Below are positions 5,759-61,528 of a stretch of DNA of 64,000 nucleotides, in pieces. The notes beneath the pieces were generated by a model. It made no database searches and was not told where the DNA came from. It was given only the letters and a program-made list of their open reading frames with translations. The stretch comes from Octopus vulgaris (taxonomy: Eukaryota), in NCBI GenBank assembly GCA_951406725.2, contig OX597821.1:36456001-36520000 (forward strand), given 5' to 3'. Each line of letters begins with the position of its first letter. The stretch's first letter is position 1. The position numbers and the translations under genes are program-made.

Positions 5759-6059
5759 GAATTTCTGCTGTTTTTAAATAAATTATATATATATATATAA
5801 TATATATATATATACAATATATATACAATATATATATATATATATATATATATATATATATATATATATATATATATATAATAATAAATATTAGGGAATA
5901 AAGCCAAATTTACAGGGAAAAAATCAGATTTAGGATTAAATCCAATTTTATAGTAAAATATTATATAATATTAATTCGAGACAAAACCACTATTTTGCAA
6001 AACAAACAAGGAAAGACTTAATCAATACATAAAAATTTTTAATATAAAGAAATAAACCG

Positions 6060-6102
6060 CCACTACAATCGTTTCATGTCTTCAATGACATTCGTCAGGT
6101 GG
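6060..6102 (-). ncRNA. Type I hammerhead ribozyme motif (inverted copy of 6343-6385)
   Basis: Exact reverse complement of the 6343-6385 motif. Confidence 0.85.
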
Positions 6103-6342
6103 ATTTTCGATCTCCTAATCTGTTTTAATTTGTACACCCCTCTGTCCGGCATTCGTCATGATTGATCGCTAGCCACTACACATTCTTTATTTTCTCTCCT
6201 TGTTTCTTTCTGTGTTCCTTTCTGTGGAATAGCATATTAAAAATTTTTATGTATTGATTAAGTCTTTCCTTGTTTGTTTTGCAAAATAGTGGTTTTGTCT
6301 CGAATTAATATTATATATTAAACAGATTAGGAGATCGAAAAT

Positions 6343-6385
6343 CCACCTGACGAATGTCATTGAAGACATGAAACGATTGTAGTGG
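6343..6385 (+). ncRNA. Canonical type I hammerhead ribozyme motif
   Basis: ccac-CTGACGA-atgtc(attgaa)gacat-GAAA-c gatt g-TA-gtgg. All core nucleotides and three stems are present. Confidence 0.85.
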
Positions 6386-6581
6386 CGGTTTATTTCTTTA
6401 TATTAAAATTTTTTATGTATTGATTAAGTCTTTCCTTGTTTGTTTTGCAAAATAGTGGTTTTGTCTCGAATTAATATTATATATATGTATATATATATAT
6501 ATATATATATATATATATATATATATATATATGTGTGTGTGTGTGTGTGTGTGTGTGTGTGTGTGTGCGTGTGTGTGTGTG

Positions 6582-6790
6582 TAGGGAGAATTCACAAATA
6601 AACAAAAGACGAAGACAGGTGGTGTAAACAACAAACAGATGTATTAGTTTAATGCTCGGGAAGTGAAAAAAGTCTTCAACGTTTCGAGCCTATGCTATTC
6701 CACAGAAAGGAACACAGAAAGAAACAAGGAGAGCAAATAAAGAATGTGTAGTGGCTAGCGATCAATCATGACGAATGCCGGACAGAGGGG
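6582..6790 (-). mobile_element. Penelope-type terminal repeat, CTGTNGA-hammerhead family
   Basis: Homologous to 7238-7447, 35238-35425 and 58521-58710; decayed hammerhead at 6673-6710 on the minus strand; ends at a microsatellite. Confidence 0.7.
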
Positions 6791-7235
6791 TGTACAAAAA
6801 AAGTTTAGAAATTATAAAAAAGTTACGAAAAGTTCAAAAGTTTCAAAAGCTTCTTGGTGTATTGGAGCGATTTTTCATCAACAGGAGTCCAGTATAATCC
6901 ATGGGCAGAAGAGATATATACACCCACCCACACCACGCTGTTGTAATGCTTCAAACAGCTTACAAGGACGCTGCCATATGCAAAACACAAATTTACGGGT
7001 GGTTTCCACGCTTTAAAAATTGACACTTGTCGCTTGAGAACCAACCTCGTTCAGGGCGACTGTCGATCTCCCGAACGAATGAAAACATCGAGAAAATTCA
7101 TGAACTGATATTGGAGAACCACCAGCGAACATTTGATGAATTTGTTGATATGACTGGTGTGTCCTGGAACCCCTGCCAACGAATTCTGAGCGAGGAATTA
7201 CGAATGAAAATAGATGCAGCAGAATTTGTGGTCAG
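6790..7235 (+). mobile_element. Mariner transposase 5' fragment (pseudogene)
   Basis: Translation SLENQPRSGRLSISRTNENIEKIHELILEN..RT..E...GVSW..CQRILSEELRMK resembles the mariner N-terminal HTH region. Confidence 0.8.
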
Positions 7236-7237
7236 GA

Positions 7238-57560: not shown

Positions 57561-58326
57561 TATATATATACATATATATATACATACATATATATATATA
57601 ATATATATATATATATATATATGGGTATGTGCGCGTGCTTGTGAGGGGGTTAGGGGGGGAGCACGCGTTTTTGTAGCAAATCTACAATTCCTTCGATAAA
57701 GAATATCAACCGAACTGCTCATTAAATTATTGTGTAAGTAGCTATGTAGGTAGGCAACCCACAAGCTCATATATTCTTCGCAGAAGACCCAGTCAGACTC
57801 AGACTCAACGTTACACAGTGTAATGAGAATGTCTCTTTGAATTGCAGTTCGTGTTCATCCTGCAGTTAACCACACAATTTACGTCGTCCTAGTTTCATGC
57901 GTATGGCACGGATCTTCGAATTATTATTGAATATCAGAAATTCAGTAATTCAGAGTTTGAAATCTTAGCTTCAATAAAAATACAACGTGGCACATAATAT
58001 TTTGAAGATTTGTAAAACATTTCAGAGTTTCACCATCTGAAATATTTTAGGTTAATAGAAGCACACACTTCGTTGTGGGCATCGACAGCTTAACCAACAC
58101 ACCAATTCAACCACATACTTAAAAACTCAAAAAGTTCTATCACCTTGTTAGAGGCGGGTTTCAAGTCTAATAAGAACTTAAGTAAAACTCCAAGAAAAAA
58201 TATACATACATGTGTGTCTGTGTGTATATGTGTGTGTGTGTACATATAAATGCACACAAACACATATATTTGTGTGCACATACACCGACATATATATTTT
58301 TCATTCTATCGAATTTTCCATTTTCC

Positions 58327-58359
58327 TTTCTGACGAAGAGCTATGCTCGAAACGTCAGA
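58327..58359 (+). ncRNA. Minimal hammerhead motif with intact core
   Basis: ttt-CTGACGA-a-gagc(tat)gctc-GAAAC-GTC-aga; ACGT palindromic stem III. Confidence 0.8.
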
Positions 58360-58520
58360 AACTATCTCTTTGTCCCACCTTAATCGAACGTCATACCAAT
58401 ACTTTCTATGTGCACGTCCACTTGCTGGTTTGTTATTGTTATATTCAATGTTCGATTATTGGATTTGACTATATATATATATATATATATATATATATAT
58501 ATATATATATATATATATAT

Positions 58521-58710
58521 AGGGAGAGTTTACGAAACAAAACAAAAGACGAAGACAGGTGGTGTACAAAACAAACAGATGTATTAGTATAACGCTCAGG
58601 AATAGAAAAAGTCCTTTACGTTTCCAGCCTACGCTCTTCTACAGAAAGGGACACAGAAAAAACAAGGAGAGAAAAAAATGTGTGTAGTGGCTAACGATCT
58701 ATCATGGCGA
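58521..58710 (-). mobile_element. Penelope-type terminal repeat with hammerhead variant at 58613-58649
   Basis: Minus strand cttt-CTGTAGA-a-gagc(gtag)gctg-GAAAC-GTA-aagg; inside (TA)n. Confidence 0.72.
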
Positions 58711-58936
58711 TCTATCATATATATATATATATATATATATATATATATGTATGTATGTATGTATGTATGTATGTACGTATGTATGTATGTATGTATGTAT
58801 GTATGTATGTGTGTATGTATGTATGTGTGTATGTATGTATGTATGTATATATATATGTATGTATGTATGTATGTGTGTGTGTGTATGTATGTATGTATGT
58901 ATTATGTATGTATGTACGTATGTATATACTAGTATA

Positions 58937-59165
58937 GGCGGCGAACTGGCAGAATCGTTAGCACGTCGGGCGAAATGCTTAGCGGTATTTCATCTGCCGC
59001 TACGTTCTGAGTTCAAATTCCGCCGAGGTCGACTTTGCCTTTCATCCTTTCGGGGTCGATAAATAAAGTACCAGTTTTGCACTGGGGTCGATGTAATCGA
59101 CTTAATCCCTTTGTCTGTCCTTGTTTGTCCCCTCTATGTTTAGCCCCTTGTGGGCAATAAAGAAA
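58937..59165 (+). mobile_element. SINE family B, full length with 14-bp TSD
   Basis: TSD tatatactagtata at 58923-58936 and 59166-59179; B-box gagttcaaattcc. Confidence 0.93.
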
Positions 59166-59453
59166 TATATACTAGTATACCCGTGGCAGCAATTTTGCAG
59201 ACAGTTTTACTGTTGATAGAAAATGGTGCATCAACACAATTGTGGAAAATATAAATGAATCTCAACAATCTACTAAATATATGTACATACATAGAATTGA
59301 AGGATTTGAAGAAAATATCTTCAACATAATGTGTGTGCGCGTGCGTGTCTGTGTGTGTGTGTGTGCGTATGTGTGTGTGCGTGTGTGTGTGTGCGTGCGT
59401 GTGTGTGTGCATGTGTGTATGTGTGTGTGTGTGCGTGCGTGTGTATGCATGCG

Positions 59454-61528
59454 TATTGGATCATCCCATAAATAATGCAGATTTTTATACTTGTTTTATT
59501 TTTCAAAATTAAAATAAACCGCTGAAAGATGGTTTACAAGGTCATCTGCTTCCTACGAATGAAAATGAGCAGGAAGCGGTGCATATATATATATATATAT
59601 ATTATTAATAATAAAAGGGTAAAATTAATTAATTAATTATGTTTTTAATTATATAATATTTGCATATATATACATATATATGTTTAAGTAGTTGAATGAA
59701 TTATCCTAGTATGGATAATTCGGTTAACCGATACCCGGGTAGCAAATTTACGTCAGAAAGAACGGTTGAAGCTACATGCCAAAGGCAGAAATCACGTGCT
59801 TTCGTGTGGAAATTTGTGTGTTCTTTTACTATAGATAAATGAAAGAATGGAGTCGAACAACGATTTAACAAAATTCCTTTATTCTCCACACGTGTTTCGA
59901 AGACTGCATATTCTTAATTCCGAAGGAGTAAAGGGTCCATTATGCCGTCTTCTCATTAGGAAAGCCAAGGAACTTATGTCAGCATCATGACGGACAAAAA
60001 CTTTTAGATGACTGCCCACACGGAGTCCATAGTGATAATCACTATGGACTCCGTGTGGGCAGTCATCTAAAAGTTTTTGTCCGTCATGATGCTGACATAA
60101 GTTCCTTGGCTTTCCTAATGAGAAGACGGCATAATGGACCCTTTACTCCTTCGGAATTAAGAATATGCAGTCTTCGAAACATGTGTCGAGAATAAAGGAA
60201 TGTTGTTAAATCGTCGTTCGACTCCATTCTTTCATTTATCTATATATATATATATATATATATATATATATATACATTCAATCATTCCATAAATATACTT
60301 CTTTTATTTTTCCAAATTGAGACAAAGTTCTTTTTTAATCTATATTCTCCTTCATTTTCTACAAGGCTGTTCAATTTATCTAGTTGCCTTGTAAGTGTCC
60401 CTTTTCCAAAATTCACTTGTCCGTGACGAAAAATACTCCTCCAGTACTGTTCTGACCTCGTCTACAGAATTCGTGTTTTTCCCGTCCAAATTATTTTGAA
60501 GACTACAGAATAAATAATAATCATATGGGGCAATGCCGGCGAATATTGTGGATAGGGTATCGTTTCCCATTCAATCTGCTCTAGCCTTTGGAATGTCATT
60601 TTCTCTGTATGTGACCGGGCATTATCCTGAGGGAATTACTTCCTTTCCTCTTGAAACCAAAGATGGTCGTTTTTCTTCTGGCGCTGACTTAAGCCGCTCA
60701 AGCTGCTCGCAGTAGATGTCCTTTGTTATCGTTTGGTTGGGGTTTAAAAGTTAAAAGTGGACTAAAACTTCCATATCCCACCAAACAATTAACAACACCT
60801 TGCATGGGTCAAGAGCTTCTTTAGCCTAGGGTGCCGGTGTTTTTATTCTTTCCCTACCTACTGTTTCCAACGCATGACATTTTTATAGAGGTCCCATTTC
60901 TCATCACCAGTCCCTATTCGGTCCAAAACAAAGGTTCATTCATGTTATGTGACAACTAAGAAGGGCACACATTCATTCTCTGCGCGTGATTAGACTCGGA
61001 AATTTGTGAGGAACCCATTGAACCAATTTGCTGACTTTTCCGATGGCACGAAGGTGTCGATGAAAGGATGAATCACCAACTCCAAGTTTTTCCTCCACTT
61101 CCTCAACAACTACGATGGGATTTTGTTCCACCAGGGTTTGCAGGAGGTCCTCGTCGAGCTTCGCAGATCTTCCAGGACGGGGCGCGTCTTCTGGGCTGTA
61201 ATTTCTGGCTCGGGATTTCTAAAAACACCGTTGACACTGGCTTACGCTTAATGTCCAATCCCCATATACTGCATTAATATTCCTCGCACTTTCCGTTGCT
61301 TTGTTGTTTTTATTGGACTTATCAAGCAAAATATTCTGAATCTGCTCCTTTGTTACTTCCATTATAACTTTGAAAAAATAACTGTTAAAATCGAACTGCA
61401 CTCTTCAAAACTTACATTAAGTACACTAAGAACAAATATAAGGTAAAATTACTACCTGCTTTTAATTAAAATTGATGCAGGTAGTTTGTTCAGACCCCCT
61501 TAAACTTTTAGTTCATTCAATTGAAGAA
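59454..61528 (-). mobile_element. Decayed mariner element, interrupted at 59583-60275
   Basis: Minus-strand motifs MEVTKEQI..ATESARNINAVYG, QWVPH, TGDEKW and IAPYDYYLF..LQNNL; TIR tattggatcatcccataaataatgc at 59454. Confidence 0.88.
59830..60244. repeat. 415-bp near-perfect palindrome containing a hammerhead motif in each arm
   Basis: 207-bp arms with a 1-nt centre at 60037 and about 4 mismatches; + strand motif at 60111-60191. Confidence 0.96.

What the first reader, a model, noticed from the sequence alone, without database searches (positions are those of the whole stretch)
5963..60244. Palindromes share one polarity: head-to-head units with 3' ends pointing out into TA repeats
Seen: in the inverted repeats at 5963-6483, 13826-14126, 47355-47704, 56879-57007 and 59830-60244, the sense hammerhead is always in the right arm on the + strand. 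The truncated 5' ends therefore meet at the centre and the 3' ends face the flanking (TA)n. Established: inverted 5'-truncated terminal repeats are known for Penelope insertions. Inference: both ends of a break in (TA)n prime reverse transcription on the same RNA 3' end and the two cDNAs are joined centrally, a twin-primed repair-like insertion mode.
Basis: partly seen in the sequence, partly recalled or inferred. Interest (0 to 1): 0.75.

Follow-up and report, generated by a model that had tools for sequence, protein, structure and literature searches.

The report
Twin-primed head-to-head Penelope insertions
These mirror-image repeats are ends of Penelope-like jumping genes pasted head to head into TA repeats, a layout already described, but their strict one-short-end, one-long-end pattern and repair-like centres suggest that both target strands likely start copying at two different points of the RNA and are then joined in the middle.

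Summary
The polarity is real. All 5 window palindromes are head-to-head, as are 22 of 22 orientable ones among 109 inverted repeats in an unbiased 1 Mb sample. They are 3' ends of five Penelope-like (PLE) families. This polarity is already published as the most frequent PLE layout (PMC3846280, PMC8557442), so it is not new and does not by itself prove twin priming.

So the two ends do not prime on the same RNA 3' end. Arms truncate independently and some barely overlap, which simple fold-back cannot produce. Centres show microhomology, and one holds a 108-nt inverted copy of neighbouring host DNA.

Best reading (0.7): two-site twin priming at endonuclease nicks in (TA)n, then microhomology-type joining at the target. 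Arm divergence argues against an artefact; read tests were uninformative. This scan noted the same pattern before, here and in other genomes.

The parts
5784..5891 (.). (TA)n target tract, left of IR1
5888..6131 (-). IR1 long (L) arm, family F1: body plus about 74-nt tail (5888-5961)
6129..6236 (-). IR1 centre: 108-nt inverted copy of the neighbouring flank 6691-6798, about 3-nt microhomology at each end
   Evidence: 99% full length to the neighbour; best other copies 95-97% over part
6234..6317 (+). IR1 extra fragment ending at the short end S (re-priming at S, inferred)
6320..6483 (+). IR1 short (S) arm with type I hammerhead motif (core at 6347), followed by (TA)n 6474-6532
6691..6798 (+). 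Template of the IR1 centre insert: part of an older common repeat in the right flank
13826..13972 (-). IR2 short (S) arm, family F2, after TA-TG-TA tract 13706-13826
13973..13986 (-). IR2 centre: 14-nt insert within a 21-nt exact inverted match to flank 14326-14346
   Evidence: the 21-mer occurs 5 times per Mb, so local origin is likely, not proven
13987..14165 (+). IR2 long (L) arm with variant hammerhead and about 30-nt tail; F2 is the terminal repeat of an RT plus GIY-YIG element
47244..47572 (-). IR3 long (L) arm, old family F3, about 88-nt tail
47591..47719 (+). IR3 short (S) arm, decayed hammerhead with long stem II, then (TA)n
56809..56944 (-). IR4 long (L) arm, family F4, about 70-nt tail, after (TA)n 56751-56809
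56941..57008 (+). IR4 short (S) arm with hammerhead; 4-nt overlap with the L arm at the centre
59680..60037 (-). IR5 long (L) arm, family F5, about 150-nt tail (59680-59829)
60038..60244 (+). IR5 short (S) arm, hammerhead with a core change shared by both arms, then (TA)n; F5 continues 5' into a frameshifted ORF with RT-like and GIY-YIG-like motifs

Best explanation
Each palindrome is one insertion of a Penelope-like retrotransposon end into a (TA)n tract, with one arm ending at a short end and the other carrying a tail, most likely because the element's enzyme nicks both target strands and each 3' end primes its own cDNA at a different fixed site on the RNA. Both cDNAs would run towards the RNA 5' end and stop independently, often at a shared strong stop, which gives near-perfect palindromes. 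Their free 3' ends would then be joined at the target by microhomology-type end joining, sometimes after copying a bit of the other arm or of the flank. Head-to-head polarity follows from this geometry. Shown here: polarity, S/L rule, independent truncation, junction features, pre-existing TA target in four loci. Inferred: nicking by the element's endonuclease, priming at both strands, one versus two RNA molecules, and which polymerase makes the centre.
For: Polarity 22 of 22. Exactly one tailed arm in 81 of 82 pairs from five families, plus 5 of 5 scorable pairs among 20 longer F5 loci. In 15 of 69 young pairs the tail-less arm reaches at least 10 nt further 5' than the tailed arm, and 6 of 69 overlap by 20 nt or less, so neither arm is a copy of the other. 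L-arm 5' ends pile up at S: 6 in 26 nt versus 9 in the next 170 nt, p about 0.009, as expected if the S primer can block the L cDNA on one RNA. A subfamily marker agrees between arms in 14 of 16 pairs versus 8.1 expected. Overlap of 2 nt or more in 19 of 32 insert-free junctions versus about 20% in the null. IR1 centre holds local host DNA, so that centre formed at the target. In full-length copies the 5' terminal repeat runs on past L into the element, so S and L are internal sites. In vitro, a PLE protein cleaves and extends both strands, starts at two internal RNA sites that match the tail ends, and is predicted to be a dimer (PMC11167929). Four insertions interrupt a common repeat whose empty paralogues have (TA)n at that place.
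Against: Most pairs overlap by over 100 nt, so the L cDNA usually passes S; this needs strand displacement, sequential use, a tandem template or a second RNA, and I cannot tell which. One S/S pair (L143, old family) and 6 short arms that end before S. Two tail-to-tail duplicates across TA tracts exist (L010 S/S; L168 L/L sharing an 8-nt deletion), so fold-back does occur. 50 of 118 arm-selected loci have no adjacent inverted partner. Target-site duplications could not be shown (5 of 55 with 10 nt or more versus 3% in controls). Loci were chosen by best match to window copies, which biases towards young and long arms. Junction classes are inflated for inserts because single real copies served as references. 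F1, F3 and F4 were not linked to their own coding element.
Confidence: 0.7

Rival explanations
1. Self-priming hairpin: an antisense transcript primes on itself, makes a hairpin, and the endonuclease resolves the two arms at S and L on integration (hypothesis of Arkhipova et al. 2013; tail as resolution product in Craig et al. 2021).
For: Predicts head-to-head polarity and junction microhomology; 36 of 69 young pairs have 5' ends within 10 nt of each other; arms usually share subfamily markers.
Against: A hairpin made before integration cannot hold local host flank at its centre (IR1; IR2, weaker), unless the centre was broken and repaired soon after. Tail-only arms would need one cut inside the loop (L018, L307, L308). 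In vitro priming is on target DNA at two internal RNA sites.
Confidence: 0.13
2. Simple fold-back: one cDNA folds on itself and is copied back to make the second arm.
For: Gives the same polarity; short snap-back pieces occur at some centres (L013, L170); two tail-to-tail duplicates across TA tracts look like fold-back.
Against: Cannot make the 15 of 69 pairs where the tail-less arm is longer at the 5' side, nor the 6 with 20 nt or less of overlap.
Confidence: 0.06
3. One reading: a spontaneous break in (TA)n is patched by two cDNAs primed on the same RNA 3' end, without the element's endonuclease.
For: Centres look like end-joining scars; one locus (L026) lost about 40 nt of flank; (TA)n tracts are known to be fragile (recalled).
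Against: The two ends differ in 81 of 82 pairs. Intact GIY-YIG elements are abundant. (TA)n preference is reported for endonuclease-bearing clades.
Confidence: 0.08
4. Artefact: long-read fold-back chimeras or assembly errors.
For: No read or contig spanning a window centre was found (both uninformative).
Against: Arms differ from each other about as much as from copies elsewhere (0.9 vs 1.0, 2.1 vs 2.0, 13.7 vs 15.5, 2.3 vs 2.9 per 100 sites). Ends follow a biological S/L rule. Flanks are colinear with empty paralogues. Contigs of an independent run show head-to-head joints of family F5 with tail-only arms.
Confidence: 0.03

Closest known systems
Inverted 5'-truncated insertions of endonuclease-bearing Penelope-like elements (PMC8557442, passages and section 11; PMC3846280, passages)
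   Same: Inverted 5'-truncated copy next to the 5' end, head-to-head most frequent, tail often at one end only, (TA)n targets, partial tandems, hammerheads in the terminal repeat.
   Different: Tails here are 30 to 150 nt rather than 30-40; the one-tail rule is near strict and counted (81 of 82); most copies are coding-free stubs; centres carry templated inserts, which I did not see reported in the passages read.
PAc Poseidon element of Anolis in vitro (PMC11167929, parts 1-2 of 4 read)
   Same: Two internal start sites bounding the tail, both strands cut and extended, AT-rich targets, hammerhead cleavage not needed, predicted dimer.
   Different: That work saw no difference in start site between strands and did not address inverted products; the genome data here show a strict pairing of one S with one L.
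L1 twin priming and templated insertions (bioRxiv 10.1101/2024.08.27.596794, passages)
   Same: Two nicks prime two cDNAs, joined by microcomplementarity, with internal deletion or duplication at the junction and occasional copies of nearby DNA.
   Different: In L1 the second site is random and overlap is small; here both sites are fixed and overlap is usually nearly complete, giving palindromes. Flank templates lie 160-320 nt away, versus within about 15 bp in that study.
Snap-back synthesis-dependent microhomology-mediated end joining (PMC5728401, passages)
   Same: Inserts that form inverted repeats with nearby sequence, bounded by short primer and microhomology repeats.
   Different: The IR1 insert (108 nt) is far longer than the examples read; the polymerase here could be the host's or the element's own.
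Animal non-LTR retrozymes as non-autonomous PLE derivatives (bioRxiv 10.64898/2026.07.22.740005, passages and Discussion)
   Same: Short non-coding hammerhead repeats related to PLE terminal repeats; F1, F4 and window-type F2 copies mostly start at a fixed 5' point.
   Different: The window copies are single inverted pairs, not tandem arrays, and start upstream of the hammerhead rather than at its cut site.

Membership tests
Endonuclease-bearing Penelope-like elements | RT plus C-terminal GIY-YIG ORF in the same sense as the terminal repeat | tested here: met
   F2: L279 and L280, Pfam RVT_1 and GIY-YIG. F5: motifs by eye in L327 only; no relevant Pfam match, BLASTP to the 781-aa ORF E=0.35. 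F1, F3, F4: no link found.
Endonuclease-bearing Penelope-like elements | Partial-tandem pseudo-LTRs with inverted 5'-truncated copy | tested here: met
   L280 (F2), L268 and L266 (781-aa family).
Endonuclease-bearing Penelope-like elements | [quoted passage not shown] | tested here: met
   81 of 82 pairs.
Endonuclease-bearing Penelope-like elements | Hammerhead motif in the terminal repeat, sense strand | tested here: met
   Own motif scan: 38 hits versus 2 in reversed sequence per Mb; degenerate in IR2, IR3, IR5; not among the Rfam rows shown.
Endonuclease-bearing Penelope-like elements | Target-site duplication | tested here: inconclusive
   Hidden by (TA)n; 5 of 55 versus 3% control; IR2 has a TA-TG-TA tract on both sides.
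Neptune clade (F2 partner, 781-aa family) | CX2-5CxxC linker before GIY-YIG | tested here: met
   Motif seen in translations.
Neptune clade (F2 partner, 781-aa family) | Placement in an RT phylogeny | not tested
   No tree built.
Hydra clade (F5) | No CCHH, CxxC near the conserved E, CxCX5C linker, (TA)n target | tested here: inconclusive
   CxxC and no CCHH seen by eye in one decayed copy; linker not recognisable next to an Asn-rich stretch.
L1-type twin priming | Two cDNAs primed from the two target strands | tested here: inconclusive
   Footprint fits; the reaction itself cannot be seen in a genome.
L1-type twin priming | Both primers on one RNA molecule | tested here: inconclusive
   Pile-up at S and marker agreement favour it; large overlaps leave two RNAs open.
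L1-type twin priming | First primer at the poly(A) end, second at a random internal site | tested here: not met
   Both sites are fixed and internal.
MITE (moves as a palindromic unit) | Copies share the same centre and symmetric ends | tested here: not met
   Centres and arm lengths differ locus by locus and ends are asymmetric.
Active hammerhead ribozyme | Self-cleavage | not testable with these tools
   Needs an assay.

The most novel reading that the evidence does not exclude
Asymmetric two-site twin priming is the default way Penelope-like elements of several clades integrate: a dimeric enzyme assigns one target strand to site L and the other to site S on one RNA, and end joining of the Pol theta type seals the centre. 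This would explain in one step the inverted repeats, the one-sided tail and the head-to-head bias, and replace the self-priming hypothesis.
Probability: 0.5. Interest if true: 0.55.

Novelty: new member of a known kind. Interest (0 to 1): 0.35.

Why it matters
How Penelope-like elements form their tandem and inverted structures is named as an open question in PMC8557442. The headline polarity is known. The counted one-short, one-long rule, the tail-only arms and the host-flank insert give sharp predictions for the existing in vitro system: paired use of the two start sites, and blocking of the L cDNA at S. These elements also supply several hairpin-forming palindromes per 100 kb in this genome, which matters for assembly and for false miRNA or MITE calls.

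Tried and rejected
Rfam scan: only sub-threshold miRNA-like hairpin and microsatellite hits among the 150 of 306 rows shown. Raw reads of three runs: 0 laid, no test. Contigs of four runs on the IR2 centre: none bridged it, which proves nothing. All-versus-all extension without masking was swamped by microsatellites and the script stopped with an error. First homology-based orientation gave false tail-to-tail calls because library entries ran into flanking repeats; redone with trimmed entries. One candidate (C1 block 60527-61124) has a partial motif in the tail-to-tail sense, score 16, within the control range of up to 17; left unoriented. Tail-only searches for F1 and F4 gave 6 and 0 matches. 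Target-site duplication scan inconclusive. An F4 arm next to an ORF in L168/L337 belongs to another family's ORF, so it is not a link. Protein atlas gave no answer. Folding z-scores do not support or refute the hammerheads. MITE and simple fold-back readings rejected as above. Literature searches for Penelope with twin priming or templated insertions gave no paper proposing it for these elements in the listings (the 3 listings were not opened). The library lacks most subscription papers, and I read no supplements, so older reviews or the supplements of PMC8557442 may already hold this idea or these families.
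Full report
Setting. The window is G000:C8:36456001-36520000 of a 2.8-Gb assembly in 227 contigs, AT-rich and full of microsatellites. Earlier scan notes call this genome an octopus; I did not test that.

Observation. The five inverted repeats are present. Each has its sense hammerhead-type motif in the right arm. IR1 and IR4 have full cores; IR2 a family-wide variant; IR5 a core change in both arms; IR3 a decayed core (by eye). Five of five is weak alone, so I fetched 10 x 100 kb from ten other chromosomes at round coordinates. 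Of 109 inverted repeats there, a direct motif score of 18 or more (controls reached 17) gave 10 head-to-head, 0 tail-to-tail and 2 ties with the motif in the spacer. Adding homology to trimmed hammerhead-bearing ends gave 22 head-to-head and 0 tail-to-tail; 87 could not be oriented. The bias is real.

What they are. Each palindrome belongs to a different repeat family, F1-F5, with 1270, 830, 1423, 7 and 2325 first-look candidates (lower bounds). A GIY-YIG search gave 148 matches from 150 scored of 6136 candidates, many in 781-aa frames that carry RVT_1 and GIY-YIG and a Neptune-type cysteine linker. F2 is the terminal repeat of such an element, in the same sense as the ORF, with an inverted copy upstream (L279, L280). 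F5 runs 5' into a frameshifted ORF with RT-like and GIY-YIG-like motifs (L327); this rests on motifs, since Pfam gave no relevant match and BLASTP was not significant. F1, F3 and F4 were not tied to an ORF. So hammerhead sense equals coding sense where testable.

Known already. PMC3846280 (passages) calls head-to-head the most frequently observed arrangement and proposes self-priming on an antisense template. PMC8557442 (passages and section 11) describes the inverted 5'-truncated copy, a 30-40 bp tail often at one end only, (TA)n targets, and names the origin of these structures as unresolved.

Mapping every copy on one real copy per family shows two fixed 3' ends, S and L, 30 to 150 nt apart. 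I examined 118 arm-selected loci (12 duplicates dropped; 68 pairs, 50 without an adjacent partner) and 26 tail-selected F5 loci (4 duplicates dropped; 14 pairs). Of 82 pairs, five of them the window's own, 81 have exactly one tailed arm and one old pair is S/S; in 6 the short arm ends before S. Five more scorable pairs among 20 long F5 loci are all S/L. In full-length copies the 5' repeat continues past L into the element, so both ends are internal sites. This matches PMC11167929 (parts 1-2 of 4): both strands cut and extended, two internal start sites bounding the tail, ribozyme cleavage not needed, predicted dimer.

Two separate cDNAs. Among 69 young pairs the S arm reaches at least 10 nt further 5' in 15, the L arm in 18, and 36 are within 10 nt; 6 overlap by 20 nt or less. 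An S arm lacks the tail and a shorter L arm lacks the S arm's 5' part, so neither can be copied from the other in those 15. The many near-equal pairs come from a shared 5' stop: 9 of 26 tail-selected F5 arms end within 305-334 although the query did not select for it. L arms also pile up at S (6 in 26 nt versus 9 in 170 nt, p about 0.009), and a subfamily marker agrees in 14 of 16 pairs (8.1 expected). IR5 arms share 5 variants, 3 seen in no other sampled arm. These favour one RNA or one source locus, but the usual large overlap leaves two RNAs open.

The centre. Of 69 junctions, 32 have no insert and 19 of these overlap by 2 nt or more, against about 20% in the null; 25 have 1-9 nt and 12 have 10 nt or more, though single-copy references inflate these classes. 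IR1 holds 108 nt that are 99% identical, inverted, to the flank 210-320 nt away, while the best other copies among 40 scored of 1645 candidates reach 95-97% over part. IR2 holds a 21-nt inverted match to its flank, a word seen 5 times per Mb. L013 and L170 hold snap-back copies of the opposite arm. These fit snap-back end joining (PMC5728401, passages) and L1 templated insertions (10.1101/2024.08.27.596794, passages). A centre with host DNA was made at the target, which argues against a hairpin built beforehand.

Target. (TA)4+ lies within 25 nt of both ends in 61 of 82 pairs. Four insertions interrupt a common repeat whose empty paralogues carry (TA)n there, with colinear flanks; one lost about 40 nt; a fifth candidate rested on one weak match. 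Duplications could not be shown, so nick versus break is open; endonuclease abundance and known clade preferences favour nicks.

Against. Two tail-to-tail duplicates across TA tracts (L010, L168) show that fold-back happens at times. Read tests were uninformative. Arm divergence close to between-locus divergence in four families and head-to-head joints in independent contigs argue against artefact.

Verdict. Observation confirmed; reading partly right. Known architecture, with useful new counts on mechanism. My searches listed no paper proposing twin priming for these elements, but the library is incomplete and no supplements were read. The scan's earlier notes reach the same reading on other DNA; they are not independent support. 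Interest 0.35.

Noticed in passing
   Followed up: partly
window 30441-31246: Inverted repeat with 264-282 nt arms (93%) around a (TACA)65 tract; no hammerhead; MITE-like or a fold-back across a microsatellite.
   Followed up: no
window 13706-13826 and 14168-14268: The same TA-TG-TA compound tract stands on both sides of IR2 (52 nt shared); may be a long target-site duplication.
   Followed up: partly
L327 477-1472: Asparagine-rich in-frame stretch between RT-like and endonuclease-like parts of family F5, like the N-rich inserts reported for rotifer Penelope elements in PMC3846280.
   Followed up: no
L262 2543-5805 and related loci L261-L278: Young Neptune-like family with a 781-aa RT plus GIY-YIG frame overlapped upstream by a second long frame (250-479 aa in many copies); a candidate for in vitro work.
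   Followed up: partly
G000:C10 block 52722-53637 (L186): An F1 subfamily with 458-nt arms whose 5' part seems to encode a short peptide resembling a mariner transposase N terminus (resemblance recalled, not tested).
   Followed up: no
L010 1335-1503 (oriented) and L337 235-694: Two tail-to-tail duplicates across TA tracts; the first also copies the centre junction, the second shares an 8-nt deletion: likely fold-back at a (TA)n hairpin.
   Followed up: partly
window 58330-58352, 26983-27005, 6583-6798: A further very common repeat with a minimal hammerhead-like motif; an ORF-bearing relative is in L337, so it is likely another Penelope-like family.
   Followed up: partly
window 23508-23934 and 40508-40951; 43560-43687 and 44742-44869: Direct repeats of 444 nt (93%) and 128 nt (100%) next to (TTA)n tracts; not examined.
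   Followed up: no
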